Below, in pieces: positions 44,812 through 62,494 of a DNA stretch of 64,000 bases. The notes beneath the pieces are model-generated. The model made no database searches and had not been told where the DNA came from. It saw only the letters and a list, made by a program, of their open reading frames with translations. The DNA is from Microbacterium sp. Its GTDB lineage: Bacteria; Actinomycetota; Actinomycetes; Actinomycetales; Microbacteriaceae. Made by a program: the position numbers and the translations under genes. The stretch's first letter is position 1; each line of letters opens with the position of its first letter. The DNA lies in assembly GCF_035687345.1 (NCBI RefSeq), contig NZ_DASRXZ010000124.1:110-64109 (forward strand), written 5' to 3'.

Positions 44812-44889
44812 GCCGGATCAGGACATCTGGCGGGAGCAGGACACTCCCCGTCGAGTGCTCCTGCTCCCGCCAGATGTCCTGATCCCGGC
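44812..44889. repeat. Palindromic MITE/REP-like element, copy 2 (about 35-bp stem)
   Basis: GCCGGATCAGGACATCTGGCGGGAGCAGGACACTC ... GAGTGCTCCTGCTCCCGCCAGATGTCCTGATCCCGGC. Confidence 0.8.
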
Positions 44890-44935
44890 GGGTGGCGGGG
44901 CGGCCGATCCTGCCATCGTGCGGCAGGATGACCCT

Positions 44936-45496
44936 GTGCACATCGCCCGCCCCGAGACCTTCATCAGCATCGACGTCGAGACGGCGGGCCCGAACCCGGA
45001 AGAGTACTCCCTGCTGTCGATCGGCGCCTGCGTCGTCGACGACCCTGACATGGCGTTCTACGTCGAGCTGAAGCCGGTGTCGGAAGCGGTCGACGCCGAG
45101 GCGATCGCCGTGAGTGGTCTGTCGATCGAGCGACTGAGCGTCGAGGGCGTCGAGCCGGCCGAGGCGATGCGCCGGTTCGACGAATGGATCGCAGATGCGA
45201 CGCCCCCGGGGCGCACGCCCGTGTTCACCGCGTTCAACGCGCCGTTCGACTGGATGTTCGTCGACACGTACTTCCGCCGGCACCTCGGGCGCAACCCGTT
45301 CGGGCACTCGGCGCTCGACATCAAGGCGTACTACATGGGCCTGGCGGGCAGCTCGTGGGCCGACACGAGCATGCGCGTGCTGTCGCCGCTCTACCTGGAC
45401 GGGCGTGATCTGTCGCACAATGCCCTTGGGGACGCGCGCGATCAAGCCGAGATGTTTCGGCGGATGCGGGGGACCGCGCGCCGCGGATCCGAGTGA
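44936..45496 (+). CDS. DEDDh 3'-5' exonuclease
   Basis: ExoI IDVET, ExoII FNAPFD, ExoIII HNALGD; start trimmed to GTG 44936. Confidence 0.88.
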   Translation: MHIARPETFISIDVETAGPNPEEYSLLSIGACVVDDPDMAFYVELKPVSEAVDAEAIAVSGLSIERLSVEGVEPAEAMRRFDEWIADATPPGRTPVFTAFNAPFDWMFVDTYFRRHLGRNPFGHSALDIKAYYMGLAGSSWADTSMRVLSPLYLDGRDLSHNALGDARDQAEMFRRMRGTARRGSE

Positions 45497-45519
45497 CGCC
45501 GCCGTCAGAGGAGCACGCC

Positions 45520-46854
45520 ATGGCCGTCGTGGACCACACCGCCGAGCTGCAGAGGATCATCGAGTCCGCGAGGCGCCTCGGCGTCGAGATGGACGAGGAG
45601 GAGAGCATCCGGTGGCTCGCGGCGATCGCCGCGGATGCGACGGACAACGCGCTCGAAGTCGACCTTGACAGCGGCACGTACGGCTACCGTCCGACGATGC
45701 TCGACTTCAGCCCGAAGGACATCGCGCGCTTCCGCCGCATCGGCGAGATCGTCGAGGTGAGGGGCGAAGGCGCCGAGAGCGCGCTCGCGCTGTCGGGCTC
45801 GGCGGCGCAGTCGAAGATCCAGACCTACCCGGGCGATGCCGACTACTTCCAGCGCCTCAACATCAAGGCGGACACGCGCGAAGAGGCGTGCGCGATCATG
45901 GCGCGACTGCTCCGCGAGCACGTGGTCGAGCGCCATCAGGGGCCGTCCTTCCAGTTCCTCGAGGCCAAGTTCGGCACGCATCAGGTCGAGGGCACGGTAC
46001 GCGGCGCGCCCGTTCGCAGGGGCAGCCCGGTCTCGTGGACGTTCGCCGAGGTCGAGGCCGGCGTGCAGGTCGTCGAGCGCGCGGATGCCGAGCCCCTCGA
46101 GCTGCGATGGGAGGAGGTCGCCCTCGATCCCGGCTGGTGCAAGCTCGACTGGGTCGTCACCGACCCGGAGCGCGGCGGGCTCTCGAACGCGAGCAACGTC
46201 ATCGACGTCACGTGGGAGGCGCCGGACGGAAGCATCGTCGCGCTCGACGGCTACCTGGACGCGTACTTCCAGGAGATCTACCTCGACGCGGCATCCGTTC
46301 CCACCTTCGCGAAGGTGGCGCAGTTCGTCAGCGCCGATGCGCTCGACGAGTACGTCGCGGCGCTCGAGGGCGAGGTGCGCAAGTACCTCACGTACGACCT
46401 GAACTACGGCAAGGCCGCGAAGCGCATGTACAACGTGTTCCGGCTGTCGGGGCGCCACATGGACGCGGCGTTCGTGCGCGAGCTGTTCGACGAGCCCGCG
46501 ACGACGCTGTATCAGGTGTGGTCGCTCATCCGCACGCTCGACAACGCGACGCAGGAGGGGTCGTCGATTCCGATCGAGCAGGTTCAGGACCAGGCCGACG
46601 CCCTCGTGCTGCAGATCGTGGAGACGCTCGAGGGAGATGCCGAATCGGAGCTCGTCGCGGCGATGCTGCGCCTTCGCCGCACCCTCGAGGGGCAGAAGAG
46701 CGGCGAGGCGCGGTCTGCGGAGGTCGCTGCCGCCCAGGCGCTCGTCGTGAATCTCGTGAACACGTTCTACCGTGAGCGCCTCATGCTCATGCCGACCATC
46801 GCGGAGTACATCGAGCGCATCCAGGCGGAAGCGGCGCCGGGCGACGAGCACTGA
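45520..46854 (+). CDS. Unknown 444-aa protein, candidate Pol-beta superfamily nucleotidyltransferase
   Basis: AGAGGAG RBS before ATG 45520; LSGS-x11-DADY motif and later KLDW. Confidence 0.6.
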   Translation: MAVVDHTAELQRIIESARRLGVEMDEEESIRWLAAIAADATDNALEVDLDSGTYGYRPTMLDFSPKDIARFRRIGEIVEVRGEGAESALALSGSAAQSKIQTYPGDADYFQRLNIKADTREEACAIMARLLREHVVERHQGPSFQFLEAKFGTHQVEGTVRGAPVRRGSPVSWTFAEVEAGVQVVERADAEPLELRWEEVALDPGWCKLDWVVTDPERGGLSNASNVIDVTWEAPDGSIVALDGYLDAYFQEIYLDAASVPTFAKVAQFVSADALDEYVAALEGEVRKYLTYDLNYGKAAKRMYNVFRLSGRHMDAAFVRELFDEPATTLYQVWSLIRTLDNATQEGSSIPIEQVQDQADALVLQIVETLEGDAESELVAAMLRLRRTLEGQKSGEARSAEVAAAQALVVNLVNTFYRERLMLMPTIAEYIERIQAEAAPGDEH

Positions 46855-46879: not shown

Positions 46880-47914
46880 TCACTCGGTGCTGACGAACCC
46901 CGTCGACTCCCGACGCACGATGCGGAAGTCGGGCTTGATCGTCTCGGGCGGACGCCGATCGCCCTTCTCGTTGATGCGCTCGATGAGCCGGTCGACGGCG
47001 ATGCGGGCGATCTCATCGCGCCCCGTGTCGACGGTCGACATCGAGGGGATCGAGTACTTGCCTTCGTCGATGTTGTCGAAACCGATCACGGCCACGTCGT
47101 CGGGGACGCGCACCTTCTCTTCGACGAGGGCGCGCAGCACACCGAGTCCCAGCGTGTCGTTGAGCGCGAAGACGGCGTCGAAGTCGACGCCCTCTGCGAC
47201 CAGGCGATGGGTCGCGGCGGCGCCTCCTGCGCGGTTCCACTGCGACATCGACGTCGGTCGCACGAGGGTCGGGTCGAGTTCGATGCCGGCCTGCTCGAGC
47301 GCGCGCAGGTAGCCCTTCAGGCGCAGGCTCGCCGAGCTCGCCTCGTCGTCTCCGTCGAGCTCGGCGCCGATGATCGCGATGCGGCGGCGGCCGATCTCGA
47401 TGAGGTGCTCGACGGCGGCCTGCGCCGACGACATGTTGTGCATCGTGACGTGGTCGGTCGGGCCGTCGAAGATGCGCTCGCCGAGCAGAACGAGCGGCGC
47501 ATCCGTCACGAGCGCCTCGGCGTCGCCCTGCCCGAGGCTCACCGGGCTGAAGAGGAGCCCGTCGAGGAAGCGCGGGCGGCTGGACGACACGGCGAGCAGC
47601 TCGGCGTCGCGGCTGCCGCTGGTCTGTTCGACCATCACGCCGAGGCCCCGCTTCTCGGCGGCGCGGATCACCGCGTCGGCGAGCTCGGCGAAGTAGTTCT
47701 CGCGAAGCGAGGGGACCGCGAGTCCGATCACGCCGGTACGGCCGGAGCGGAGGCCGCGCGCGGAGAGGTTCGGTCGGTAGTCGAGCTGTTCGATGGCCGC
47801 GTTCACGCGGTCACGGGTGCCCGGGCGCACGTGCGGGTAGTGGTTGATGACGTTCGACACCGTCTTGATAGAGACGCCGGCCACCCGTGCGACGTCGTGC
47901 ATCGTCGGTCCCAT
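46880..47914 (-). CDS. LacI family regulator
   Basis: TMHDVARVAGVSIKTVSNVIN, YRPNLSARGLR, VPDDVAVIGFDN. Confidence 0.93.
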   Translation of the reverse strand: MGPTMHDVARVAGVSIKTVSNVINHYPHVRPGTRDRVNAAIEQLDYRPNLSARGLRSGRTGVIGLAVPSLRENYFAELADAVIRAAEKRGLGVMVEQTSGSRDAELLAVSSSRPRFLDGLLFSPVSLGQGDAEALVTDAPLVLLGERIFDGPTDHVTMHNMSSAQAAVEHLIEIGRRRIAIIGAELDGDDEASSASLRLKGYLRALEQAGIELDPTLVRPTSMSQWNRAGGAAATHRLVAEGVDFDAVFALNDTLGLGVLRALVEEKVRVPDDVAVIGFDNIDEGKYSIPSMSTVDTGRDEIARIAVDRLIERINEKGDRRPPETIKPDFRIVRRESTGFVSTE

Positions 47915-48012: not shown

Positions 48013-48029
48013 AAATGCAACGTTGTAAA
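48013..48029. promoter_or_regulatory. LacI-type operator AAATGCAACGTTGTAAA
   Basis: Matches TACAACGTTGTA sites at 52271-52298 and 61346-61384. Confidence 0.7.
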
Positions 48030-48070
48030 GTAGTGTAGCCCGCGGTGGTGAACGTCAGGGAGGACGGACC

Positions 48071-49054
48071 ATGCTGAGCGCGACCGACTGGCCGATCGCC
48101 GCTGCGATGCTTTCTCTGGGCGATGCCCATCCGAGCGCGGAGGGCCCGTCGTCGGCCGGGGTCGATCGCTGGCTCGAGGATCTGACTGAAGTGAGCGATG
48201 CCGGCTTCACCGACGTCGACCTCACGGACTCGTGGGTCCGCTACGGAGACCTCGACCAGCACGGCCTGACCGCGCTCCGGGAATGCCTCGCCTCGTCGGG
48301 CCTCCGCGCCGCATCGCTGTCCGCCATCCGTCGCAGCGTGATCGACGAGCGGCACGGCGACGAGCACCTCGCGTACGCGCACCGCACGATCGACGTCGCC
48401 GCGGAGCTCGGAGTCTCGGTCGTGTCGGTGGGCCTGCATCGCGCGCTGACACCGCGTCAGCGCGAAGCGCTCTGGTTCTGGACGGTCGAAGGCCATCGCG
48501 ATCCGCTCCTCGACGAGAGCGCGTGGCAGCTCGCCGTGACGCGTTTCCGCGAGCTCGGGCGTCACGCCGGCGAAGTCGGTCTCCTGCTGTCGCTCGAGCT
48601 GTACGAGCACACGTTCCTCGGCACCGCGGCGTCGGCCGTGCACCTCGTGGAGGACATCGGACTCGACGTCGTCGGTCTCAACCCCGACATCGGCAACCTG
48701 ATCCGCCTGCACCAGGCCGTCGAGGACTGGCGGGCGATCGTCGAAGCGACCATGCCGTACGCGAACTTCTGGCACGTCAAGAACTACACGCGCGACGAGG
48801 ATCCCGCGGCCGGGCTCTACTCGACCGTGCCGACGTCGCTCGAGCTCGGCCTCATCGACTACCGCACCGCCGTGAAGATCGCGCTCCGCAGCGGCTTCCA
48901 GGGCGTCATCTGCGTCGAGCACTACGGCGGCGACGGGCTGTCGGTGAGCGCGACGAATCGCGACTACCTGCGCCAACGGGTTCTTCCGCGCCGCGAGTAC
49001 ACCCTCGGCCGGAGCCGAGTCCGCCAGTCGCACGCAGCAGAGGTGACCGCATGA
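48071..49054 (+). CDS. Xylose isomerase-like TIM-barrel (AP_endonuc_2) protein, candidate 3-keto-acid decarboxylase
   Basis: SLELYE, NPDIGN, WHVKNY, CVEHYGGD metal-ligand pattern. Confidence 0.75.
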   Translation: MLSATDWPIAAAMLSLGDAHPSAEGPSSAGVDRWLEDLTEVSDAGFTDVDLTDSWVRYGDLDQHGLTALRECLASSGLRAASLSAIRRSVIDERHGDEHLAYAHRTIDVAAELGVSVVSVGLHRALTPRQREALWFWTVEGHRDPLLDESAWQLAVTRFRELGRHAGEVGLLLSLELYEHTFLGTAASAVHLVEDIGLDVVGLNPDIGNLIRLHQAVEDWRAIVEATMPYANFWHVKNYTRDEDPAAGLYSTVPTSLELGLIDYRTAVKIALRSGFQGVICVEHYGGDGLSVSATNRDYLRQRVLPRREYTLGRSRVRQSHAAEVTA

Positions 49055-50787
49055 CCCGAATCTTCGCCGACCCGGATGCCTTCGTCGCCGACGCCCTCCG
49101 CGGGTTCGCGCGCGCACACCGTGACGAGGTCGCCCTCGTCGACGGGGGAGTCGTGCGGGCGGATCCGCTCGATCGGGGCAAGGTCGCCGTGCTCATCGGC
49201 GGCGGCTCCGGGCACTATCCCGCATTCGCCGGATACGTCGGACCGGGGCTCGCGGCAGGCGCGATCTGCGGGAACATCTTCACCTCCCCGTCGACGGCCC
49301 AGGCGATGCGCGTCGCCCACGCGGCCGACGCGGGCGGAGGCATCCTCTTCACGTACGGGCGCTACGCCGGCGACATCCTCCACCTCGGCGAGGCCGAGCG
49401 GCGACTGCGCGCCGAAGGCGTCGACGCACGGACCGTGCTCATCACCGACGACGTCGCCAGCGCTCCGCCCGAGGGGCTCGATGAACGTCGCGGCATCGCG
49501 GGCATCGTATGCGTGTTCCACGTGGCCGGTGCCGCGGCCGAGCGGGGCGACTCGATCGAGGAGGTCGAACGGCTCGCAACGCTGGCGAACAGCCGCACGC
49601 GCAGCCACGGCGTGGCGTTCGCGGGCTGCACGCTTCCCGGTGCCGACCACCCGCTGTTCGAGGTGCCCGAGGGGCAGATGTCGATCGGCCTCGGCATCCA
49701 CGGCGAGCCCGGCGTGCGCGATGTGCCCCTCCAGTCGGCACCCGAGCTCGCGGTGACCCTCGCCGCCCCGCTCCTGGCCGAACGCCCGGCCGAAGCGCGA
49801 CGCGCAGCCGTGATCCTCAACGGTCTGGGCTCAGTCAAGTACGAGGAGCTGTACGTGCTCTTCGGCTACGTGGTCGACCATCTCGAGGCTCAGGGCATCG
49901 AGGTCGTCGATCCCGAGTGCGGCGAGTTCGTCACGAGCCTCGACATGGCCGGAGTCTCGCTCACGATCATGTGGCTCGACGACGAGCTCGAGGAGCTGTG
50001 GAAGGCGCCGGCGTCATCACCGGCGTTCCGCAAGGGTCATGTCGCGACCCGATCCGGCGCGCAGCGGACGATCGAGCAGGTGGCAGCAGCAGACGCGGCC
50101 CGGGCCGCCGCGGTCGAGGCGACTCCCGCGTCGCGCGCGGCCGCGCAGGTCGCCCGCCGACTGCTCCGCGCGGCCCGCGACACGGTCGCCGCCCACGTCG
50201 ACCAGCTCGGCGAGCTCGACGCGGTCGCCGGTGACGGCGACCACGGCATCGGGATGCTGCGCGGCCTCACGGCGGCGGTGGAGGCATCCGCCGGAGCCGA
50301 CGACGCGACAGGCGTGCGTGAGCTGCTCCAAGCCGCCGGCGACGCGTGGTCGGAGGTCGCCGGAGGTACGTCCGGCGCGCTGTGGGGCGCCGCGCTCGCG
50401 CAGCTCGGCTCGTCGCTCGGCTCTCCCGACGCGTTCACGGCGAGCGATGTCGCGGATGCCGTCACCGCCGCCCGCGCGCGGATCGCCGAGCTCGGCGGCG
50501 CGGACCTCGGCGACAAGACCATGCTCGACGCGGTCGCGCCGTACGCCGACACCCTGACCGAGCGCGTGCGAGCGGGTGCGGACCTGCGGTCGGCGCTGAC
50601 GGATGCCGCCGCCGCCTCCCGCACCGCCGCGGAGGCGACCGCGCCGATGACGCCCCGCCGCGGGCGCGCGAGACCGCTCGCCGAGCGGAGCATCGGACAC
50701 CCCGATCCCGGAGCGACGTCGTTCGCGCTCATCGCCGAGGCGCTGGCCGCGGCGGCGGCATCCGAGGATCCCGAAGAAGCGGAGTGA
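49051..50787 (+). CDS. Fused DhaK-DhaL family kinase (candidate erythrulose kinase)
   Basis: GGGSGHYPAF, GNIFTSP, YAGD, GLGIHGEPG, GDGDHG, GDKTMLD, GHPDPGA. Confidence 0.88.
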   Translation: MTRIFADPDAFVADALRGFARAHRDEVALVDGGVVRADPLDRGKVAVLIGGGSGHYPAFAGYVGPGLAAGAICGNIFTSPSTAQAMRVAHAADAGGGILFTYGRYAGDILHLGEAERRLRAEGVDARTVLITDDVASAPPEGLDERRGIAGIVCVFHVAGAAAERGDSIEEVERLATLANSRTRSHGVAFAGCTLPGADHPLFEVPEGQMSIGLGIHGEPGVRDVPLQSAPELAVTLAAPLLAERPAEARRAAVILNGLGSVKYEELYVLFGYVVDHLEAQGIEVVDPECGEFVTSLDMAGVSLTIMWLDDELEELWKAPASSPAFRKGHVATRSGAQRTIEQVAAADAARAAAVEATPASRAAAQVARRLLRAARDTVAAHVDQLGELDAVAGDGDHGIGMLRGLTAAVEASAGADDATGVRELLQAAGDAWSEVAGGTSGALWGAALAQLGSSLGSPDAFTASDVADAVTAARARIAELGGADLGDKTMLDAVAPYADTLTERVRAGADLRSALTDAAAASRTAAEATAPMTPRRGRARPLAERSIGHPDPGATSFALIAEALAAAAASEDPEEAE

Positions 50788-50790
50788 CCC

Positions 50791-51252
50791 ATGGGATGGA
50801 AGATCGTCGTCGGCGCGGATGACGCCGGCTTCGCGTACAAGGAGGCCCTCCGCGAGCTGCTCGAGGCGGACCCGCGCGTGGACGACGTCGTGGACGTCGG
50901 CGTCTCGAGCACCGAGACCACGCCCTATCCGAACGTCGCCGTGAGCGCGGCGACCATCGTCGCGCGGGGTGAGGCCGACCGCGCGCTGCTCGTGTGCGGC
51001 ACGGGGCTGGGCGTCGCCATCGCGGCGAACAAGGTGCGCGGCATCCGTGCCGTCACGGCCCACGACAGCTACTCGGTCGAGCGCTCGGTCAAGAGCAACA
51101 ACGCTCAGGTCCTCACGCTCGGCGCACGCGTGATCGGGCTCGAGCTCGCGAAGAAGCTCGTGGGCGAGTGGCTCGAGCACCGATTCGACCCCGCTTCCGC
51201 GTCGGCCGCCAAGGTCAGTCTCATCGAGCGCTACGAAGGAGAAGCACAGTGA
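50791..51252 (+). CDS. rpiB: RpiB/LacA/LacB isomerase (candidate D-erythrulose-4-P isomerase)
   Basis: GADDAG (Asp where canonical RpiB has His), [32 protein letters not shown]. Confidence 0.82.
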
Positions 51253-52202
51253 TCCGCAGGGCGGCGGTCGTGGGCTCGGGATACATGGGCGGCGGGATCG
51301 CGCAGGTCCTCGCGCTCGCCGGTCGGGACGTCGTCCTCGCCGACGCGAGCGCAGAGCTCGCGGCGACCAATCGCGAGCGCCTCATCCGTGAGGCGGGTGA
51401 GTACGCCGAGCGCGGGATCTTCCCCGCCGACGCCGAGGAGCGCATCGCCACGCGACTGACGGCCGCCGCCTCGCTCGAGGAAGCCGTGGCCGACGTCGAC
51501 TTCGTCGAGGAGGCGGTCCCGGAGATCCTCGAGCTCAAGCACGAGACGCTGCGACGCATCAGCGCCGGATGCCGCCCCGACACACTCATCGGCAGCAACA
51601 CGTCGACCATCTCGATATCCGCCCTCGCCGAGGCGGTCGAGCGTCCCGAGCGGTTCCTCGGCGTCCACTTCAGCAACCCGGCGACGTTCGTGCCCGGCGT
51701 CGAGGTGATACCGCACGCCGGCACCGATCCCGATGCGGTCACCCGCGTCGTCGACCTCCTCGCCGAGTGCGGCAAGGTCGGGGTGCCCATCAAGGACGTG
51801 ACCGGGTTCGTCCTCAACCGGCTGCAGTACGCGCTGTTCGGCGAGGCAGCCCGCCTGGTGGAGGAGGGCGTCGCGACGCCCGAGGCGATCGACCTCATCG
51901 TGCGCACGACGTTCGGGTTCCGGCTGCCGTTCTTCGGCCCGTTCGCGATCGCCGACATCGCGGGTCTCGACGTGTACGAGTTCTGCTATCGCTCGCTGAG
52001 CGCCGCGTACCCGGATCGCTTCGCCGAGCCCGAGGTCCTCCGCGAGAAGGTGGAGCGCGGCGACAAGGGAGTCAAGTCCGGTCGCGGGTTCCTCGCGACC
52101 TCCGCCGAGAAGGCTCCGGAGCTCGCGGCGTACCGCGACGACGCCTATGCGGCGCTGTCCGCGCTTCTGCGTCGACTCGGGCCGGCCCCCGTCGACTACT
52201 GA
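51249..52202 (+). CDS. 3-hydroxyacyl-CoA dehydrogenase family protein (candidate aldonate 3-dehydrogenase)
   Basis: [38 protein letters not shown]. Confidence 0.85.
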
Positions 52203-52239: not shown

Positions 52240-52298
52240 TTGACAGCGTGGAGCGCCGGTGCCATGGTATCTACAACGTTGCTCTACAACGTTGTAGA
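52240..52298 (+). promoter_or_regulatory. Sigma-A-like promoter with tandem LacI operators
   Basis: TTGACA at 52240, CATGGT 17 nt later; CTACAACGTTGC and perfect TCTACAACGTTGTAGA. Confidence 0.75.
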
Positions 52299-52392: not shown

Positions 52393-53760
52393 GTGAAGAC
52401 AAGGCGTGTTTTTGCTGTGGTCACGGCGCTCGCTTTCGCGGGCGCGCTCGTCGCCTGCTCCGGCGGTGGCGGCGGCGGTGACAACAACGGCGGAGGCGGA
52501 GGCGACTCCGCATCGAACTGCGAGAACGAGATCAAGAACCCGGATGCCCCGGTGGTCACGCTCTGGGCGTGGTACCCGAACTCCGAGCTCGTGGTCGACA
52601 ACTTCAACGAGGCGAACGACGACGTCCAGGTCTGCTGGACCAACGTCGGCGCCGGCGGTGAGGCATACGACAAGTTCCAGACGGCGATCTCGGCCGGCAG
52701 CGGCGCACCCGACGTCATGATGGTCGAGGCCGACCGCATCGCGACCTTCCAGGCTCAGGGCGCCCTGGTCGACCTGAAGGACCTCGGCTACGAGGACGTG
52801 AAGGACAACTTCAGCGAAGGCGCCTGGAAGGACGTGTCGGTCGGCGACGGCATCTACGGCGCTCCGATCGACGGTGGCCCGATGGGCATGATCTACCGCA
52901 CCGACATCTTCGAGGAGTACGGCATCACGCCGCCCACCACGTGGGAGGAGTTCGAGGCCACGGCGCAGAAGGTGAAGGACGCGGGCGGTCCGTGGTTCGC
53001 GAGCTTCGCCGCGAACCAGCCGGCGTACGTGACGGCGCTCTTCTACGGGAACGGCGCGGAGCCGTTCGAGTACGACCCCGCGAACGAGGGCGAGATCGGG
53101 ATCAACCTGAACAGCCCCGAGATCAAGGAGGTGCTCGAGTACTGGAGCGGCCTCGTCGAGAAGGACCTCGTCGGCACGGAGGACCAGTTCACCCCCGAGT
53201 ACATCGCGGGTGTGATCAACGGGAACTACGCGACGTACCTGTCCGCCGCATGGGCGCCCGGCTACCTCCAGGGTGCCGGCGTCGGTGAAGGCGCGGATGC
53301 GGGCGTCTGGGCGACCGCGCCGATGCCGCAGTGGGATCCGAACAACCCCATCGCGATCAACTGGGGCGGCTCGGCCTTCTCGGTCTCGAGCCAGGCGAGC
53401 AACCCTGAGCTCGCAGCCAAGGTCGCGTTCGGCGTGTACGCCGACCAGGCGTCGCTCGATGACGGGTGGCAGAACCAGATCATCTTCCCGCTCAACGTGA
53501 ACGTGCTGGACTCCGATGAGTTCCTCAACTACGAGGTGCCCTTCTTCAGCGGCCAGCAGGCGAACAAGGAGGTGTACGTGCCCGCGGCCAACGCGTACAA
53601 GGGCATGACGTACACGCCGCTCGGGCAGTACTACTACTCCGCGTTGACGAAGCAGATCGCCGCGATCAACGACGGACAGATCACCGGTTCCGAAGCAGCC
53701 GACGCACTCCAGGAGGACGTGGTGTCGTACGCGGAGGAGCAAGGGTTCACCGTCAACTGA
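52393..53760 (+). CDS. Sugar ABC transporter substrate-binding lipoprotein
   Basis: Lipobox LVAC, APDVMMVE, NWGGSAF; AAAGGA RBS. Confidence 0.92.
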   Translation: MKTRRVFAVVTALAFAGALVACSGGGGGGDNNGGGGGDSASNCENEIKNPDAPVVTLWAWYPNSELVVDNFNEANDDVQVCWTNVGAGGEAYDKFQTAISAGSGAPDVMMVEADRIATFQAQGALVDLKDLGYEDVKDNFSEGAWKDVSVGDGIYGAPIDGGPMGMIYRTDIFEEYGITPPTTWEEFEATAQKVKDAGGPWFASFAANQPAYVTALFYGNGAEPFEYDPANEGEIGINLNSPEIKEVLEYWSGLVEKDLVGTEDQFTPEYIAGVINGNYATYLSAAWAPGYLQGAGVGEGADAGVWATAPMPQWDPNNPIAINWGGSAFSVSSQASNPELAAKVAFGVYADQASLDDGWQNQIIFPLNVNVLDSDEFLNYEVPFFSGQQANKEVYVPAANAYKGMTYTPLGQYYYSALTKQIAAINDGQITGSEAADALQEDVVSYAEEQGFTVN

Positions 53761-53774
53761 CGCGTCACGTCACG

Positions 53775-53806
53775 GAGGGCCGGTCCGTGCACGCGGACCG
53801 GCCCTC
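53775..53806 (+). terminator. Intercistronic hairpin after SBP gene
   Basis: GAGGGCCGGTCCG-N6-CGGACCGGCCCTC. Confidence 0.6.
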
Positions 53807-53832
53807 GGTCATCCCTCATACCCGGAGAAATC

Positions 53833-54762
53833 ATGACCGCCTCAACAGCAAGCCCGATGACGAAGAAGGGGCATCGCCGCTCCACCACCGCCAGACAGAA
53901 CCTGTTCGGGTGGCTCTTCGTCGGACCGTTCGGGATCATCTTCCTCGCCCTGCTCGTGCTGCCGATCGGCTTCGCGCTCTACTTGAGCCTCTTCCAGAAG
54001 TCGCTCATCGGCGGCACGCGATTCGTCCTCTTCGGCAACTATGCGAAGGCCTTCACCGACCCGTCGTTCCTCGACGGCGTGTGGTTCGTCATCAGCTTCT
54101 CGCTCGTCCTCATCCCGCTCCAGATGGCGGTCTCGCTCGCGATCGCGCTGATCCTCGACATCCTGATCACGCGGTTCGCGCGGTTCTCGCGGCTCATGAT
54201 CTTCATGCCGTACGCGATCCCGACTGTCATCGGCGCCCTCATGTGGGGGTTCCTGTACAGCGACAACTTCGGTCCGCTCGCGGAGCTCTTCGGAATTTTC
54301 GGAGCTCAAGCCCCTGATTTCCTGAGTCGCAGCCTGATCTTCTGGGGTCTGCTCAACATCGTGACCTGGCAGTGGGCCGGCTACTACATGATCATCCTGT
54401 ACGCCGCTCTGCAGGGCATCGACCCGACGCTGTACGAGGCGGCTCGCATCGACGGTGCGTCGCAGTGGCAGATCGTTCTGCGCATCAAGATCCCGCTCCT
54501 CACGCCGGCGCTGCTCCTCATCCTCGTGTTCGCGCTCATCGGGACCCTGCAGTTCTTCAATGAGCCGAAGATCCTGCAGCAACTCGCCGCGGGCGCGATC
54601 CCCGACGACTTCACGCCGAACATGTACGCGTACCAGCAGGCCTTCTCCCTGGCGAACCAGAACTACGGCGCGGCGATCTCGTTCGCACTCGGTGCCGTCG
54701 TGTTCGTGTGCGTCTACATCTTCCTGTTCGCCACTCGCAAGCGAGGGAGCTTCCTGTCATGA
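53833..54762 (+). CDS. Carbohydrate ABC permease
   Basis: EAA motif LYEAARIDGAS. Confidence 0.93.
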   Translation: MTASTASPMTKKGHRRSTTARQNLFGWLFVGPFGIIFLALLVLPIGFALYLSLFQKSLIGGTRFVLFGNYAKAFTDPSFLDGVWFVISFSLVLIPLQMAVSLAIALILDILITRFARFSRLMIFMPYAIPTVIGALMWGFLYSDNFGPLAELFGIFGAQAPDFLSRSLIFWGLLNIVTWQWAGYYMIILYAALQGIDPTLYEAARIDGASQWQIVLRIKIPLLTPALLLILVFALIGTLQFFNEPKILQQLAAGAIPDDFTPNMYAYQQAFSLANQNYGAAISFALGAVVFVCVYIFLFATRKRGSFLS

Positions 54763-55685
54763 CCATCACTCCCACGGAGCTCACCGGCGCACCCGCCGCC
54801 GAACCAGGCGCCGTCGAGCGGCGAAAGACTCCTCGAACCCCCGGACGCATCCCGCTGAGCATCGTGCTCGGCGTGCTGATGGTGTACTTCCTCGTTCCGT
54901 TCTGGTGGCTGATCGTCAACAGCTCGAAGACCGCGTCGGGCCTGTTCGGCGGTGACAGCGCACTGTGGTTCAGCGACGACATCAACTACATCGGCAACAT
55001 CGTCGACCTCTTCACCTACAGCGGCGGCATCTACGCGCGCTGGCTCGGGAACTCCGCGCTGTACGCGATCGTCGGCGGAGTCGGCGCGACGGCCCTCGCG
55101 GTCCTCGCGGGGTACGGCTTCGCGAAGTACCGGTTCTTCGGCCGGCGCGCCTCGTTCGCGATCCTGCTCGGCGCGGTCATGGTGCCGACCACCGCCCTCG
55201 TGATCCCGACGTTCGTGCTCTTCGCGCAGATGGGGTGGACGAACACGATCTGGGCGGTCATCTTCCCGACGCTGCTCAACCCGTTCGGCGTGTACCTCAT
55301 GCACGTGTACGCCCGTGACGCGGTGCCGGACGAGCTGCTGGATGCGGCGCGCGTCGACGGCGCGGGCGAGTTCCGCACCTTCTTCCAGGTCGCGCTGCCG
55401 ATGCTGCGCCCTGCGATCGTGACGGTGCTCCTGCTGTCGGTCGTCGCGTCGTGGAACAACTACTTCCTGCCGCTCGTGATGCTCTCCGACAACCGTCTGT
55501 TCCCCGTGACCGTCGGCATCGGCCTGTGGCAGTCGACCGCGTCGACGTACGGTGCCGCAGGCGGGCAGACGCTGTGGAGCATCATCATCCTCGGTTCGCT
55601 CGTCTCGGTGATCCCGCTGATCATCGCGTTCCTGACGCTCCAGAAGTACTGGCGCGGCGGCCTGTCGATCGGGAGCCTCAAGTGA
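54759..55685 (+). CDS. Carbohydrate ABC permease
   Basis: ELLDAARVDGAG; ATGA overlap. Confidence 0.93.
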   Translation: MTITPTELTGAPAAEPGAVERRKTPRTPGRIPLSIVLGVLMVYFLVPFWWLIVNSSKTASGLFGGDSALWFSDDINYIGNIVDLFTYSGGIYARWLGNSALYAIVGGVGATALAVLAGYGFAKYRFFGRRASFAILLGAVMVPTTALVIPTFVLFAQMGWTNTIWAVIFPTLLNPFGVYLMHVYARDAVPDELLDAARVDGAGEFRTFFQVALPMLRPAIVTVLLLSVVASWNNYFLPLVMLSDNRLFPVTVGIGLWQSTASTYGAAGGQTLWSIIILGSLVSVIPLIIAFLTLQKYWRGGLSIGSLK

Positions 55686-55734: not shown

Positions 55735-57240
55735 ATGATCCGCGCACACCTCACCATCGATCCGCACTTCACGGTCGGTCGCATCAATCGCAGGCTCTTC
55801 GGATCCTTCGTCGAGCACCTGGGCCGGTGCGTGTACGACGGCATCTACGAGCCGGGGCATCCGTCGGCCGATGAGAACGGCTTCCGCCGTGACGTCATCG
55901 ACCTCGTCAAGGAGCTCGGCGTCTCGACGATCCGCTACCCGGGCGGCAACTTCGTCTCGGGCTACCGCTGGGAGGACGGCATCGGACCGCGCGATCAGCG
56001 TCCGCGCCGCCTCGACCTCGCGTGGCACTCGACCGAGACGAACCAGATCGGGCTCGACGAGTTCGCGACGTGGCTCGAGAGCGTCGGAAGCGAGCTCATG
56101 TACGCGGTGAACCTCGGCACGCGCGGCGTGCTCGAGGCGCTCGACGTGCTCGAGTACGCGAACCTCAAGCCGGGCACGTACTGGGCCGACCAGCGCGTCG
56201 CCAACGGGCGACCCGAGCCCCACAACATCCGCATGTGGTGCCTGGGCAACGAGATGGACGGCCCCTGGCAGCTCGGCCACAGCACCCCGGAGGCGTACGC
56301 GCAGCTCGCGGCGACCACGGCTGCGGCGATGCGCCAGATCGATCCCGACCTCGAGCTCGTCGTGTGCGGCAGCTCGAGCGCCCACATGGAGACCTTCGGC
56401 GAGTGGGAGCGCATCGTCCTCGAGAAGACCTACGACTGCGTCGACTACATCTCGTGCCACGCGTACTACGAGCCGGAAGGCGACGACTACGGGAGCTTCC
56501 TCGCCTCGGGTGTCAACATGGACCGCTTCATCGATGCCGTCATCGCGACGGCGGACTCGGTCAAGGCGGTGCTGCGCAGCGACAAGACGATGAACATCTC
56601 GTTCGACGAGTGGAACGTCTGGTACCAGTCGCGGTACCAGGAGGTCGAGCGGATCACGGATGTGCAGACGTGGCCCGTCGCGCCGCGCCTGCTCGAGGAC
56701 TCCTACTCCGTGCTCGACGCGGTCGTCTTCGGAAGCCTGCTGATCTCGCTCATCCGCCACGCCGACCGCGTCACGGCCGCGAGCCTCGCGCAGCTCGTCA
56801 ACGTGATCGCTCCGATCATGACCGAGCCGGGCGGGCCGGCGTGGCGGCAGACCACGTTCTACCCGTTCTCGCTCACGTCGAAGCTCGCGCGCGCGACCGC
56901 GCTCGAGCTCAAGCTCGACAGTCCGACGTACGACACCGCCCTCCACGGTGAGGTGCCCCTCGTCGACGCGGTCGCGACGCACGACGACGGCGGCACGACG
57001 ATCTTCGCCGTGAACCGCAGCCTCACTGACGAGGTGACCCTCGAGATCGACACGCGCGCGCTCGGCGCGGTCGGGAGCGCCGAGGCGACGTCGCTGTTCG
57101 ACGACGACATCCACGCCGCGAACACGCTCGACCAGCAGGACCGCGTCGTGCCGAAGCCGAACGCGTCCGCGCAGGTGGGAGACGGGCTCGTGACCGTCAC
57201 GCTCCCTCCCGTGTCGTGGACGGTGCTGACCCTGGGCTGA
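55735..57240 (+). CDS. abfA: Alpha-L-arabinofuranosidase (GH51)
   Basis: FGSFVEHLGRCVYDGIY, RYPGGNF, WCLGNEMDG, ISFDEWNVW. Confidence 0.93.
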   Translation: MIRAHLTIDPHFTVGRINRRLFGSFVEHLGRCVYDGIYEPGHPSADENGFRRDVIDLVKELGVSTIRYPGGNFVSGYRWEDGIGPRDQRPRRLDLAWHSTETNQIGLDEFATWLESVGSELMYAVNLGTRGVLEALDVLEYANLKPGTYWADQRVANGRPEPHNIRMWCLGNEMDGPWQLGHSTPEAYAQLAATTAAAMRQIDPDLELVVCGSSSAHMETFGEWERIVLEKTYDCVDYISCHAYYEPEGDDYGSFLASGVNMDRFIDAVIATADSVKAVLRSDKTMNISFDEWNVWYQSRYQEVERITDVQTWPVAPRLLEDSYSVLDAVVFGSLLISLIRHADRVTAASLAQLVNVIAPIMTEPGGPAWRQTTFYPFSLTSKLARATALELKLDSPTYDTALHGEVPLVDAVATHDDGGTTIFAVNRSLTDEVTLEIDTRALGAVGSAEATSLFDDDIHAANTLDQQDRVVPKPNASAQVGDGLVTVTLPPVSWTVLTLG

Positions 57241-57259: not shown

Positions 57260-58642
57260 ATGACGCAGCCGAGCGTGCTCCGCGTCGACGGCACCCGCAT
57301 CGCGGCGGGCGACACACCGGTGATCCTCCGGGGCTTCGGCCTCGGCGGGTGGATGAACATGGAGAACTTCATCACGGGATACGCCGGATCGGAGTCCCAG
57401 CAGCGCCGCGCGCTGCGGCGCGTGCTCGGTGACGAGGCATACGAGCGCTTCTTCGACCGCTTCCTGCGCGAGTTCTTCACCGAGGCGGATGCCGCGTACC
57501 TCGCCTCGCTGGGCCTGAACTCGCTGCGCATCCCGTTCAACTACCGTCACTTCGAGTCCGACGCCGAGCCGCTCGCCATCAAGGCGGAAGGCTTCGCGCT
57601 CCTGGATCGGGTCGTCGACGCGTGTGCGGCGCACGGCATCTACACGATCCTCGACCTGCACGCGGTGCCGGGGGCCCAGAACCAGCACTGGCACAGCGAC
57701 AACCCGACGCAGTGGGCGTACTTCTGGGAGCAGCGCCAATTCCAGGACCGCGTCGTCAACCTGTGGGAGCACATCGCCGAGCACTATCGTGACAATCCGT
57801 GGGTGGCCGGCTACAACCCCGTGAACGAGCCTGCAGATGCGCACGGCGACGCGATCGGGCCGTTCTACCGCCGGCTCGAGTCGGCGATCCGGGCGGTCGA
57901 CCCCGACCACATCCTCTTCCTCGACGGCAACCGGTACTCGACGCAGTTCGACCAGCTCGGCGACCCGCTGCCCAACACGGTCTACACCGCGCACGACTAC
58001 GCCCTCCCCGGATTCGTGGACGGCGGCCCGTACCCCGGCGTCTCGCGCGGCGAGTACGTCGATCGCGACCGCGTCGAGGAGACCTTCCTGCAGCGCACCG
58101 CGTACATGCGCGAGACGGGCACGCCCATCTGGGTCGGCGAGTTCGGGCCCGTCTACACGGGTGACCCGGTGCGCGACGAGCAGCGGTACCGGCTGCTGCA
58201 GGACCAGCTCGAGATCTACGACAGGTACGACGCGAGCTGGGCGCTGTGGACGTACAAGGACATCGGGCTCCAGGGCGTGGTGACGGTCGATCCCGACTCG
58301 GACTACCTGCGCCGCATCGCGCCGGTGCTCGAGAAGAAGGCGCGACTGGGCGTCGACTCGTGGGGGTCGACGGATGCCGGCATCCGAGACATCCTCGAGC
58401 CGATCGAGCGTCTCTTCGAGAACGAGTTCCCCGATTTCCAGCCGTACCCGTGGGGTGCGCGCCGGTGGATCCACGGGCACGTCCGTCACGTCATGCTCGC
58501 CGAGGCCATGGTCGACGACTTCGCGCGCGCTTTCGAGGGGGTGGGGCCCGACGAAGCGGAGCTGCTCGCCGACGCCTTCGCGTTCCGCAACTGCCGCATC
58601 CGTGAGGGACTCGCCGCCATCCTCGAACGCGCCGCGCGCTGA
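57260..58642 (+). CDS. Glycoside hydrolase family 5 (cytoplasmic; beta-xylosidase-like by recall)
   Basis: LDLHAVPG.QN..WHSDN, acid/base YNPVNEP, nucleophile WVGEFG; no signal peptide. Confidence 0.85.
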   Translation: MTQPSVLRVDGTRIAAGDTPVILRGFGLGGWMNMENFITGYAGSESQQRRALRRVLGDEAYERFFDRFLREFFTEADAAYLASLGLNSLRIPFNYRHFESDAEPLAIKAEGFALLDRVVDACAAHGIYTILDLHAVPGAQNQHWHSDNPTQWAYFWEQRQFQDRVVNLWEHIAEHYRDNPWVAGYNPVNEPADAHGDAIGPFYRRLESAIRAVDPDHILFLDGNRYSTQFDQLGDPLPNTVYTAHDYALPGFVDGGPYPGVSRGEYVDRDRVEETFLQRTAYMRETGTPIWVGEFGPVYTGDPVRDEQRYRLLQDQLEIYDRYDASWALWTYKDIGLQGVVTVDPDSDYLRRIAPVLEKKARLGVDSWGSTDAGIRDILEPIERLFENEFPDFQPYPWGARRWIHGHVRHVMLAEAMVDDFARAFEGVGPDEAELLADAFAFRNCRIREGLAAILERAAR

Positions 58643-59720: not shown

Positions 59721-61283
59721 CTACTCCCAGAAGCCCAGGTTGAACAGCAGCTGGTCAGCGAGCGCCAGGAAGCCGTCCGCCTCTTCAGCGGTCAGCTTGC
59801 CGTTGCTCGCGAACGCGTTCACCTGGTCGACGAAGCCGCCCAGCACCTCGAGGGCCTCGTCGTTCTTGTCTTTGGCGACGAGGTTGTAGGCCTGGTTGAG
59901 CTTCACGGTCAGGGCGTTCTTGTTCCCGCCGTTCAGGCTCGTGGCGGCCACGCCGTCCTTCAACTGGCCGATCTCGTCCGCGATGAACTTCTCCGGCTGC
60001 CACAGGTAGTCGCGCGCGAAGATCGTGAACAGCTGGTTCCACGCGTTGAAGTCGTGCGCACCTGCCACCACGACGTTCTCGACGAACGCGACCGCATCGC
60101 GCTGGGCGACCTGGTTCGCGTTGGGCAGACCGAAGTCCCATGCCCCGCCGCCATACAGGATGTACGGGGCCGCGAGGTTCGGCGCCGCCACCTGGACGCT
60201 GACGCCGCCGCTCCACGGGCCGTACCAGCCGAACAGCGTGGGATCGAAGTTGATGATGTTCTGTGTCACGAACGATCCCGCCGACAGGCCGGCGAATGCG
60301 CGGTCGATCGGCTTCGTCGAGACGTTGTAGTTCTCCTCGACGAACGGCATCACGATGTTGCGCAGGTTGGGGTAACCCTGGTTCGCTGCGCCCAGGTAGT
60401 TCGTGTTCGTCGTGATGACGACCGCCGGCTCGGTGAGGCCGTCGGCGAGCAGGTTGTCCATGATCACCGGCACGTCGCCGATGTTCATCCAGTCGGACTG
60501 GTCCTGACCGCCGCCGTGCTGCATGTAGATGAGCTTGTACGGCTCGGCGCGGTTCTCGTCGTAGCCCGGAGGCAGGTACACGCCGATCGTGCGCGGGATG
60601 CCGTTCAGCGGAGGCAGGCTCGGGATCTCGACGTAGCTCCACGTGCCCTTCGCGGTGTCGGGGCGCTCGTTCTCGATCTCGCGGGCCGCCAGCGGAGCGT
60701 AGTTCTGCTTCTCCGCGTCATAGGGCACGTACACCTTGTTGAACGCGCGGCGCGCCGTTCCCGTGAGGCCGTCCGGAGCGTAGATCGGCGAGTTCGCCGG
60801 ATCCGTCACCCACAGGTTCGTGTTGTTGTTGACGTAGAACCAGTACTGGTTGACGCCGGCCGCGAGCGGCACGTCGTGCACCCAGTACCCGTCGCCGACG
60901 GGGGTCATCTCGACGTCGTAGGCGCCGCCGCCGCGCATGAGGCCCGGACGATACTCGGACGGCTGATAGACCGTCGTGTCGCTCGGGTCCTCCCAGTTGC
61001 GCAGCAGGATGTCCGCGACGAAGCGGACGCTCGTGGCATCCGGGTTGTAGTAGACGAAGTGCCCCGTGTAGCCGGTGGGGGAGTTCTCGTCCTTGACGAT
61101 CGTGGGCCCCGGAGTGAGGTCCACGTCGTCGGCTTGAGCGGCAAGCGGCGCCGAGCTCAGCACCATCGCCAGCGCGACACCGACAGCGGTGAACGGCCGC
61201 GCGAGGCGGGAGCGGCGCCGCTCGGCGCCGGCGTCTATCGAGGCGCCTGCGCCCCGATTCCGCCGCAGCAGAACTGTCATCAC
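59721..61283 (-). CDS. Secreted multi-domain esterase (Ig-like N domain, CE1-like alpha/beta hydrolase, C-terminal helical module)
   Basis: Signal peptide ending AQA, YLPPGY, GLSAG nucleophile elbow, HDFNAW. Confidence 0.8.
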   Translation of the reverse strand: MMTVLLRRNRGAGASIDAGAERRRSRLARPFTAVGVALAMVLSSAPLAAQADDVDLTPGPTIVKDENSPTGYTGHFVYYNPDATSVRFVADILLRNWEDPSDTTVYQPSEYRPGLMRGGGAYDVEMTPVGDGYWVHDVPLAAGVNQYWFYVNNNTNLWVTDPANSPIYAPDGLTGTARRAFNKVYVPYDAEKQNYAPLAAREIENERPDTAKGTWSYVEIPSLPPLNGIPRTIGVYLPPGYDENRAEPYKLIYMQHGGGQDQSDWMNIGDVPVIMDNLLADGLTEPAVVITTNTNYLGAANQGYPNLRNIVMPFVEENYNVSTKPIDRAFAGLSAGSFVTQNIINFDPTLFGWYGPWSGGVSVQVAAPNLAAPYILYGGGAWDFGLPNANQVAQRDAVAFVENVVVAGAHDFNAWNQLFTIFARDYLWQPEKFIADEIGQLKDGVAATSLNGGNKNALTVKLNQAYNLVAKDKNDEALEVLGGFVDQVNAFASNGKLTAEEADGFLALADQLLFNLGFWE

Positions 61284-61345: not shown

Positions 61346-61384
61346 TTTACGACGTTGTAAAGAGAATTCTTACGACGTTGTAAA
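61346..61384. promoter_or_regulatory. Two LacI-type operators upstream of the esterase
   Basis: TTTACGACGTTGTAAA and CTTACGACGTTGTAAA, 23 bp apart. Confidence 0.72.
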
Positions 61385-61475: not shown

Positions 61476-62321
61476 TCAGTCCAGCGGATCGGCCTCGAGG
61501 TCGCGCACGTGGTAGAACTCCTGGTCCCACAGGAGGTACACGAGCCACGCCGGGAGGTAGTACGCCTCCTGCAGGAAGTTCGCCTGCGACGCGTGGATCG
61601 CCCAGCCCTCGTGCTTCTTGCCGACCTCGGCCGACATCGCGTACTCGGGGTCGGGCTGGTTCTCGACGACGAACGTGCCCACCTCGCCACCGAAGATCGA
61701 AAGGGCGGTCGTCGGGCTGATCGTGTACACGATGTGGTCGGGGCCGCGATAGGACCCGCCCTCCTCGGCGAGCTGCGCGATCGCGAGCTCGGTGATGCGA
61801 CCCATCTGCATGTGATCGGGGTGCCCGGTCGCGCCCGACTCGGGCCAGAACGCGACGACGACGTCGGGCCGCACACGCTTCATGACGGATGCCACGCGGT
61901 CGACGAGCTCCTCCTCGTCGACGTCGGCCACACCGCCGTCGGGGTAGTCCCACACCTCGTGCTCGTCGACGCCGAGGTTGAAGCTGTTCTTGAGCGCCTC
62001 GGCCTTGCGGATGTCGCCGAGATCGTCCTGTCGTGCGACCACCGGCGTCTGGTGGCCGGCCTCGCCCTGCGTCGCGGTGATCATCGCGGTGTAGGCGCCG
62101 TCATGCTCATTCGCGCGCCAGAAGAGTCCGTTGACGGTCTGCTCGTCATCGGGGTGGGCGAACACGCCGAGCACGCGCGTTCCGCCGAGCTCGCCGACCA
62201 CCGAGTCGACGCCCTTCGCGGTCGGCATGTGGAAGAGGTGGCGGCCCGCCCAGTACGCGCCCGCGAGGAGGACGACGAGGACGGACGCGACGACGATGAG
62301 CGCGATCCAGCGCTTGCGCAT
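61476..62321 (-). CDS. PIG-L family deacetylase with N-terminal signal anchor
   Basis: MRKRWIALIVVASVLVVLLAGAYW; AHPDDE, TQGEAG, HPDH. Confidence 0.85.
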   Translation of the reverse strand: MRKRWIALIVVASVLVVLLAGAYWAGRHLFHMPTAKGVDSVVGELGGTRVLGVFAHPDDEQTVNGLFWRANEHDGAYTAMITATQGEAGHQTPVVARQDDLGDIRKAEALKNSFNLGVDEHEVWDYPDGGVADVDEEELVDRVASVMKRVRPDVVVAFWPESGATGHPDHMQMGRITELAIAQLAEEGGSYRGPDHIVYTISPTTALSIFGGEVGTFVVENQPDPEYAMSAEVGKKHEGWAIHASQANFLQEAYYLPAWLVYLLWDQEFYHVRDLEADPLD

Positions 62322-62430
62322 GAGGGGACTCCGAGTGGTGCTGGGGCGACCCGTCGGCCGTGACGGGTCGAGGAATCCTAAACCGAACGGCCGGCATCGT
62401 CGCGCCGGCTGTGGATGGGTGCAGCGCCTG

Positions 62431-62494
62431 TGTAAAGAATTCTTGACACGATTGACCACGCGCGGCTACGGTTCGATGTAAAGAAAACCTGACA
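62431..62494 (+). promoter_or_regulatory. Promoter with two 18-bp operator-like sites
   Basis: TGTAAAGAATTCTTGACA (62431) and TGTAAAGAAAACCTGACA (62477); TTGACA-N18-TACGGT. Confidence 0.7.

What the first reader, a model, noticed from the sequence alone, without database searches (positions are those of the whole stretch)
48071..52202. Four-gene operon suggesting an aldonate 3-oxidation / decarboxylation route to erythrose-4-phosphate
Seen: overlapping TIM-barrel (AP_endonuc_2), DhaKL kinase, RpiB and 3-hydroxyacyl-CoA-dehydrogenase-like genes behind a LacI operator, with no thiolase or hydratase. Established: L-gulonate 3-dehydrogenase belongs to this dehydrogenase family; OiaC-type TIM barrels decarboxylate 3-oxo acids to erythrulose; DAK-family DerK and RpiB-family DerI convert D-erythrulose to erythrose-4-P. 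I recall a similar D-ribonate route in M. smegmatis (unverified). No TIM-family LerI is present, which favours D-erythrulose and hence a D-pentonate such as xylonate, ribonate or arabinonate. Co-regulation with GH51/GH5 would tie this route to hemicellulose pentoses.
Basis: partly seen in the sequence, partly recalled or inferred. Interest (0 to 1): 0.6.

Follow-up and report, generated by a model that had tools for sequence, protein, structure and literature searches.

The report
Sugar-acid breakdown operon in xylan regulon
These four genes match a known Mycobacterium smegmatis route that turns five-carbon sugar acids into erythrose-4-phosphate; the only fresh point is that this Microbacterium appears to switch them on together with genes for taking up and cutting xylan/arabinan fragments.

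Summary
The four genes are real and are reciprocal best hits of one M. smegmatis cluster (TIM barrel 44%, kinase 50%, RpiB 73%, dehydrogenase 52%), so the pathway is probably the published D-ribonate route (Luo & Huang 2018). As cited in PMC13753588, that route is C2 oxidation, 2-oxo to 3-oxo isomerisation, spontaneous or unassigned decarboxylation, then kinase; RpiB/DerI would finish it. I could not read the primary paper, so matching its enzymes to these genes rests on family names recalled from its abstract. LerI is absent from locus and genome, but DerK versus LerK cannot be called. A LacI-type palindrome lies before the cassette, the ABC-GH51-GH5 operon and esterase genes; it precedes the cassette in 13/18 loci carrying this LacI versus 1/110 without. 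Relatives suggest a swap from GntR control. Most novel open reading: D-xylonate from oxidised xylo-oligosaccharides (about 0.25). This scan already noted the same idea on another genome (e1-5267739).

The parts
46880..47914 (-). LacI-family repressor (LacI_a), divergent; probable regulator of the cassette and the ABC/GH operon
   Evidence: Pfam LacI + Peripla_BP_3; the operator before the TIM barrel tracks with this gene, 13/18 vs 1/110 loci
48016..48027 (.). LacI-type operator TGCAACGTTGTA, just upstream of a conserved -10-like box (48031-48036)
48071..49054 (+). Xylose-isomerase-like TIM barrel; orthologue of the M. smegmatis protein of PDB 5TNV; probable 2-oxo- to 3-oxo-aldonate isomerase (OrnI-like); E176, D206, H235, K237, E283 invariant
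   Evidence: Z 35.5, rmsd 2.6, 295 aligned; 44%, reciprocal best hit
49051..50787 (+). Fused DhaK-DhaL kinase of the PRK14479 subfamily; probable erythrulose kinase
   Evidence: (714.6 bits, cut-off 492; glycerone kinase TIGR02361 348 vs cut-off 575)
50791..51252 (+). RpiB-family isomerase of the DerI type; probable D-erythrulose-4-P to D-erythrose-4-P isomerase
   Evidence: 73% to the M. smegmatis cluster RpiB, 29% to the genome's other RpiB
51249..52202 (+). 3HCDH-family NAD-dependent dehydrogenase; probable aldonate dehydrogenase (Rib2D-like); S119, H140, E152, N190 kept
   Evidence: below every NCBIfam cut-off; 52%, reciprocal best hit
52240..52296 (+). Second promoter region: conserved TTGACA (52240-52245) and tandem operators (52272-52283, 52285-52296)
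52393..55685 (+). Oligosaccharide ABC importer: binding protein 52393-53760, permeases 53833-54762 and 54759-55685
55735..57240 (+). GH51 alpha-L-arabinofuranosidase
   Evidence: NCBIfam ArfA 715.8 vs cut-off 625; PDB GH51 E 9e-177
57260..58642 (+). GH5 enzyme closest to Geobacillus GE32/GE39-type beta-xylosidase
   Evidence: 9KU5 E 1e-106, next hit 2e-18; GE39 (>94% to GE32) assayed as a beta-xylosidase, PMC6020330
58655..59668 (+). Second LacI-family regulator (LacI_b)
59721..61283 (-). Esterase-domain protein; two operator copies upstream at 61348-61359 and 61371-61382

Best explanation
The operon is an orthologue set of the M. smegmatis aldonate cluster. Inferred steps: (1) the 3HCDH-family enzyme oxidises a (2R)-pentonate at C2 with NAD+; (2) the metal-dependent TIM barrel isomerises the 2-oxo acid to the 3-oxo acid through an enediolate; (3) the beta-keto acid loses CO2 without a dedicated gene, giving erythrulose; (4) the fused DhaKL kinase phosphorylates D-erythrulose at C4; (5) the DerI-type RpiB gives D-erythrose-4-P for the pentose phosphate pathway. 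With no LerI in the genome, a D-configured C4 (D-xylonate, D-ribonate or D-arabinonate) fits best. In this Microbacterium lineage the cassette lacks GntR and a free-acid permease and shares a LacI operator with an oligosaccharide importer, an arabinofuranosidase, a beta-xylosidase-like GH5 and esterases, so the acid probably arrives with hemicellulose fragments. Shown here: genes, orthology, synteny, operator conservation, LerI absence. Inferred: all chemistry and the substrate.
For: All four genes are reciprocal best hits of one M. smegmatis locus, TIM-RpiB-DAK / GntR / AP_endonuc_2-3HCDH-GntP; its TIM barrel matches all 8 tested 5TNV motifs and its TIM is LerI-like (PDB 11EF E 1e-73, against 8e-43 for the best TPI). 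PMC13753588 and PMC12994016 describe the M. smegmatis D-ribonate route as Rib2D + OrnI + spontaneous or unidentified decarboxylation + kinase, with no decarboxylase gene in the cluster. Orthologous clusters carry carboxylate transporters: GntP, a D-galactonate-type MFS (41/80 loci) or TTT. The same TIM-barrel family also sits beside genes whose best model is L-threonate dehydrogenase, a C2 oxidiser (below cut-off), and beside a tartrate/isopropylmalate-dehydrogenase-family gene. Two invariant glutamates around a metal site and ketose-epimerase/isomerase fold neighbours suit enediolate chemistry. Operator evidence.
Against: The primary paper was not available, so that Rib2D and OrnI are these very M. 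smegmatis genes rests on family names recalled from its abstract (3HCDH, AP_endonuc; a second, ADH_N-family dehydrogenase was also named, from memory). 3HCDH-family enzymes normally oxidise C3, and in Rhizobiaceae the TIM barrel pairs with a PdxA-family enzyme, a family known for C3 oxidation. 44-52% identity does not fix substrate. The kinase cannot be typed.
Confidence: 0.62

Rival explanations
1. One reading: the dehydrogenase oxidises the aldonate at C3 and the TIM barrel is an OiaC-like decarboxylase; same end product.
For: 3HCDH family chemistry is beta-hydroxy oxidation and the catalytic residues are kept. A PdxA-family partner replaces it in Sinorhizobium, Pararhizobium and Paracoccus. 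One homologue carries an automatic UniRef name 'L-gulonate 3-dehydrogenase'.
Against: The published orthologous route is C2 oxidation plus isomerase. L-gulonate-dehydrogenase structures are among the most distant relatives. OiaC is described as a separate gene lying near, not identical to, OrnI. No ApnO gene is in this operon.
Confidence: 0.18
2. Same enzymes, but the physiological substrate is an L-series acid (L-arabinonate or L-lyxonate, giving L-erythrulose) or a tetronate (giving dihydroxyacetone and DHAP); housekeeping TPI would cover the LerI step, or RpiB would be idle.
For: GH51 arabinofuranosidase is in the regulon. 40/80 orthologous loci and M. smegmatis do carry LerI beside this kinase. 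Some loci keep only the TIM barrel and dehydrogenase (L008, L022, L057).
Against: There is only one TIM-family gene in the genome. RpiB is kept in 69/80 loci, which points to a C4 product. Free arabinose has its own araDBA operon, and the motif copy before araD is not conserved in 5 relatives.
Confidence: 0.12
3. The TIM barrel is a ketose (tetrulose) 3-epimerase that turns L- into D-erythrulose after C3 oxidation and spontaneous decarboxylation.
For: Many fold neighbours are D-tagatose/allulose/L-ribulose 3-epimerases (Z 22-24), with weak HMM matches to 3-epimerases.
Against: These scores are far below cut-offs and far below 5TNV. The barrel co-occurs with LerI in half of the loci, where an epimerase would be redundant.
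Confidence: 0.05
4. The dehydrogenase is an ordinary 3-hydroxyacyl-CoA dehydrogenase and the kinase a dihydroxyacetone kinase; the grouping is incidental.
For: The best sequence and fold matches in the PDB are acyl-CoA dehydrogenases.
Against: Scores are below all curated cut-offs. There are no beta-oxidation neighbours. The dehydrogenase is linked to the TIM barrel in 76/80 loci across two phyla. The genome has other 3HCDH genes and a separate DhaK/DhaL pair.
Confidence: 0.03

Closest known systems
D-ribonate catabolic pathway of Mycobacterium smegmatis (Luo & Huang 2018, BBRC 505:1107, PMID 30316512, as cited in PMC13753588 and PMC12994016): Rib2D, OrnI, erythrulose kinase
   Same: Same four protein families; reciprocal best hits at 44-73% identity; no decarboxylase gene; TIM barrel is the 5TNV protein.
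   Different: Gene order (one operon here, divergent pair around GntR there); no LerI, GntR or GntP here; LacI operator shared with an oligosaccharide ABC importer, GH51, GH5 and esterases; substrate untested.
M. smegmatis tetritol lower pathway LerK/DerK, LerI, DerI (Huang et al. 2015, as cited in PMC12994016)
   Same: Same kinase subfamily and DerI-type RpiB leading to erythrose-4-P.
   Different: No polyol dehydrogenase and no LerI; the kinase falls outside both mycobacterial kinase clades.
D-apionate oxidative route 3: ApnO, OiaC, LerK, EryH, EryI (Carter et al. 2018, as cited in PMC13753588)
   Same: 3-oxo acid, decarboxylation, erythrulose, erythrose-4-P logic.
   Different: No ApnO and no EryH/LerI; the TIM barrel here is the orthologue of the M. 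smegmatis cluster protein.
Four-step tetronate pathway: Ltn2D/DenD, OtnI, OtnK, OtnC (as described in PMC12994016)
   Same: C2 oxidation followed by 2-oxo to 3-oxo isomerisation.
   Different: There the 3-oxo acid is phosphorylated and decarboxylated by an enzyme; here a DAK-family kinase would act after CO2 loss.

Membership tests
M. smegmatis D-ribonate route | 3HCDH-family dehydrogenase orthologous to the one in the M. smegmatis kinase cluster | tested here: met
   52% over 314 aa, reciprocal best hit; next paralogue 35%
M. smegmatis D-ribonate route | AP_endonuc_2 TIM barrel orthologous to the cluster gene | tested here: met
   44% over 302 aa, only hit in the genome; 5TNV Z 35.5 vs next 25.6
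M. smegmatis D-ribonate route | Erythrulose-kinase-type DAK and DerI-type RpiB downstream | tested here: met
   50% and 73%, reciprocal best hits; PRK14479 above cut-off
M. smegmatis D-ribonate route | The characterised Rib2D and OrnI are the genes of locus L191 | tested here: inconclusive
   Primary paper not held; secondary papers give no locus tags; match rests on family names from memory
M. smegmatis D-ribonate route | C2 oxidation of D-ribonate and 2-oxo to 3-oxo isomerisation | not testable with these tools
   needs enzyme assays
OiaC 3-oxo-isoapionate decarboxylase route | ApnO oxidoisomerase and EryH/LerI in the same cluster | tested here: not met
   operon holds four genes, none ApnO- or TIM-like
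OiaC 3-oxo-isoapionate decarboxylase route | Sequence kinship of the TIM barrel to OiaC | not tested
   no OiaC reference sequence could be fetched
L-gulonate 3-dehydrogenase (lambda-crystallin) | Closer to lambda-crystallin than to other 3HCDH-family enzymes | tested here: not met
   3ADO and 3F3S rank 45th-46th of 51, E 1e-31 vs best 8e-48
3-hydroxyacyl-CoA dehydrogenase (beta-oxidation) | Curated family cut-off reached and thiolase/hydratase neighbours | tested here: not met
   best 227 bits vs cut-off 427; all 20 models below cut-off; no such neighbours
3-hydroxyacyl-CoA dehydrogenase (beta-oxidation) | Fold and Ser/His/Glu/Asn catalytic set | tested here: met
   9FBD Z 33.9, rmsd 2.2, 286 aligned; S119, H140, E152, N190 invariant
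D-erythrulose kinase DerK (versus LerK) | Groups with the polyol-dehydrogenase-linked mycobacterial kinase rather than the LerI-linked one | tested here: inconclusive
   52% vs 50%; outside both clades in a quick tree with a long outgroup branch; which clade is DerK is from context and memory
ATP-dependent glycerone kinase (TIGR02361) | Curated cut-off | tested here: not met
   348.1 vs 574.95 bits
LacI regulon with ABC/GH51/GH5 | Same palindrome conserved before cassette and ABC operon, tied to the LacI orthologue | tested here: met
   13/18 vs 1/110 before the cassette; present before the binding-protein gene in 12 of 13 loci holding it
LacI regulon with ABC/GH51/GH5 | Binding of LacI_a to the site and identity of the inducer | not testable with these tools

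The most novel reading that the evidence does not exclude
The regulon imports arabinoxylan oligosaccharides whose reducing end has been oxidised to xylonic acid (for example by fungal oxidases), strips them with esterases, GH51 and the GH5 beta-xylosidase, and sends the released D-xylonate through C2 oxidation, isomerisation and CO2 loss to D-erythrulose and erythrose-4-P. That would be a dehydratase-independent D-xylonate route and would explain why LerI is missing wherever the cassette sits beside oligosaccharide importers.
Probability: 0.25. Interest if true: 0.6.

Novelty: new member of a known kind. Interest (0 to 1): 0.32.

Why it matters
The pathway itself is published, so this mainly corrects annotations ('3-hydroxybutyryl-CoA dehydrogenase', 'dihydroxyacetone kinase') and shows the route is widespread: 30 of 151 genomes of this genus carry the TIM barrel, as do Micrococcaceae, Halomonadaceae and Rhizobiaceae. 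The regulon gives a testable clue to the natural substrate. If it is D-xylonate from oxidised xylan, it would add a pentonate route without a dehydratase and show how soil actinobacteria use oxidised hemicellulose. The enzymes also allow a direct test of how a 3-hydroxyacyl-CoA dehydrogenase fold could oxidise C2.

Tried and rejected
The primary papers (Luo & Huang 2018; Huang 2015; Carter 2018; Zhang 2016) were not held and no paper names the MSMEG loci. The kinase tree did not separate DerK from LerK: the two mycobacterial kinases are sisters and the window protein lies outside (quick tree; careful run unfinished). A motif copy 15 nt before araD (G000 C133:27463) suggested an arabinose regulon, but none of 6 araD loci in 5 relatives has it at <=2 mismatches: rejected. 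LerI and oligosaccharide/GH context never co-occur in 76 full-flank loci (45 LerI only, 28 glycan only, 3 neither), but this is about 4 changes and 2 well-supported independent pairs, sign test p>=0.5: a lead, not a result; some relatives also hold a second TIM elsewhere. The consensus promoter scan found nothing. Folding the dehydrogenase gave only generic 3HCDH matches. The Atlas search gave only unnamed AP_endonuc_2 clusters. OiaC was not listed among HMM or fold matches, which does not exclude it. No complex prediction was run.
Full report
Observation. The four ORFs are at the stated place and belong to the stated families. Two junctions overlap by 4 nt and one has a 3-nt gap. A divergent LacI gene lies at 46880-47914, and the palindrome TGCAACGTTGTA at 48016-48027 is far above chance. 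Closest loci are from Microbacterium. The genome is 100% complete and has one TIM-family gene, so LerI was not found. No thiolase or hydratase flanks the operon.

Conservation. Of 80 loci retrieved with the TIM barrel, 76 hold the dehydrogenase, 73 the kinase, 69 the RpiB and 40 a TIM-family paralogue. The barrel-dehydrogenase pair is the tightest unit. Many relatives add a GntR regulator and a carboxylate transporter: D-galactonate-type MFS in Arthrobacter, GntP in mycobacteria and Kushneria, TTT in Rhizobiaceae. This points to a sugar-acid substrate and away from acyl-CoA metabolism; the dehydrogenase also misses every curated cut-off.

Orthology to a known system. The only PDB sequence relative of the barrel is 5TNV from M. 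smegmatis (fold Z 35.5). I fetched the M. smegmatis locus: TIM, RpiB, DAK, GntR, AP_endonuc_2, 3HCDH, GntP. All four window genes are reciprocal best hits of it (44, 50, 73 and 52%), and its barrel matches all eight 5TNV motifs tested. Its TIM is LerI-like. Two open papers describe the M. smegmatis D-ribonate route of Luo & Huang 2018 as dehydrogenase Rib2D, isomerase OrnI, spontaneous or unidentified decarboxylation, and kinase, passing through the 2-oxo acid and lacking a decarboxylase gene (PMC13753588, PMC12994016). From memory, the abstract names the families 3HCDH, ADH_N and AP_endonuc. I could not read the paper, so the gene-to-enzyme match is probable, not shown.

Mechanism. Most likely: NAD+ oxidation at C2, metal-dependent 2-oxo to 3-oxo isomerisation (E176, D206, H235, E283 invariant), CO2 loss, phosphorylation of erythrulose, and RpiB isomerisation to erythrose-4-P. 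All steps are inferred. The barrel's other partners partly agree: genes best matching L-threonate dehydrogenase (C2 oxidiser; below cut-off) and a tartrate/isopropylmalate-dehydrogenase-family gene. Nothing ties the dehydrogenase specially to L-gulonate 3-dehydrogenase, and OiaC kinship could not be tested. The kinase is of the erythrulose-kinase type, not a classical glycerone kinase, but is about equidistant from both mycobacterial paralogues; LerK is reported to accept both enantiomers. The case for D-erythrulose therefore rests on LerI absence alone.

Regulation and context. The palindrome recurs in tandem before the ABC binding-protein gene, which has its own conserved TTGACA, and before esterase-domain genes here and on contig C68. 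It precedes the barrel in 13 of 18 loci with this LacI and 1 of 110 without, and the sites are kept in close relatives. Deeper-branching Microbacteriaceae loci (L010, L011, L014, L066, L196, L199) keep a GntR gene between LacI and the barrel and lack the site there, while keeping it at the ABC operon. The simplest reading is that GntR was lost and the cassette joined the LacI regulon; the tree is unrooted, so direction is inferred from how widespread GntR is. The downstream enzymes are a GH51 arabinofuranosidase and a GH5 closest to a Geobacillus beta-xylosidase. In a separate clade the cassette follows a GH3 closest to beta-xylosidases and precedes an alditol/xylitol-oxidase-like gene (L017, L200), which could supply a pentonate. 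The genome has xylA and araDBA for free pentoses and no gene passing a pentonate-dehydratase cut-off among its two PF00920 matches. LerI and glycan context exclude each other in 76 loci, but on too few independent changes to test.

Verdict. My rough split for the natural substrate: D-xylonate 0.3, other D-pentonate 0.25, L-arabinonate or L-lyxonate 0.15, tetronates 0.15, other 0.15. The scan has already noted the same pathway in a xylan context on another genome (e1-5267739) and the PdxA version (e1-3179968); these are unchecked notes, not independent support, and I reached the reading before seeing them. Interest 0.32.

Noticed in passing
L214:7633-14650 (Sinorhizobium meliloti plasmid), L215, L216, L205: The same TIM barrel (52%) and kinase pair with a PdxA-family dehydrogenase and a TTT transporter instead of the 3HCDH enzyme; 93 plasmid records, mostly Sinorhizobium, carry the barrel. 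Looks like non-orthologous replacement of the first step.
   Followed up: partly
L017:5653-13462, L200:6288-14142, L043: Cassette followed by an alditol/xylitol-oxidase-like FAD gene (2VFR E 7e-118), and in L017 and L200 preceded by a GH3 beta-xylosidase-like gene; a possible pentose-to-pentonate entry step. The window's genome has a 60% homologue of the oxidase elsewhere (G000 C114:9912-11147), without the operator.
   Followed up: partly
L008 (Microbacterium humicola) 8001-9950: Kinase and RpiB are missing from the cassette while barrel, dehydrogenase, LacI, ABC, GH51 and GH5 remain.
   Followed up: no
L020, L023, L026, L034, L035, L037, L050, L052, L075: A Pseudarthrobacter clade lacks LerI and GntR and places the cassette behind LacI, an ABC importer, Gfo/Idh/MocA oxidoreductase and ThuA-like genes.
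   Followed up: partly
G000 C133:27463 (L139:8464-8475): One-mismatch copy of the operator just before araD of the araDBA operon; not conserved in five relatives.
   Followed up: yes
G000 C68:10083-18251 (L140): Separate cluster with an ABC sugar importer, split DhaK/DhaL and a BtpA/SgcQ-family gene; substrate unknown.
   Followed up: no
G000 C6:21567-24759 (L211): D-erythronate dehydrogenase (NF043036 above cut-off) divergent from a GntR-like gene and a DUF1537-type kinase-like gene; could feed 2-oxo-tetronate to the barrel studied here.
   Followed up: partly
window 44855-46854: Exonuclease-like ORF followed by a 453-aa ORF with no Pfam match; already followed up by the scan as e1-5236339.
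   Followed up: no
window 41026-44796: 1256-aa ORF that reads like a proline dehydrogenase/P5C dehydrogenase fusion (PutA); not checked with a family search.
   Followed up: no
window 61476-62459 (-): PIG-L family deacetylase-like gene next to the esterase gene, conserved there in L194.
   Followed up: partly
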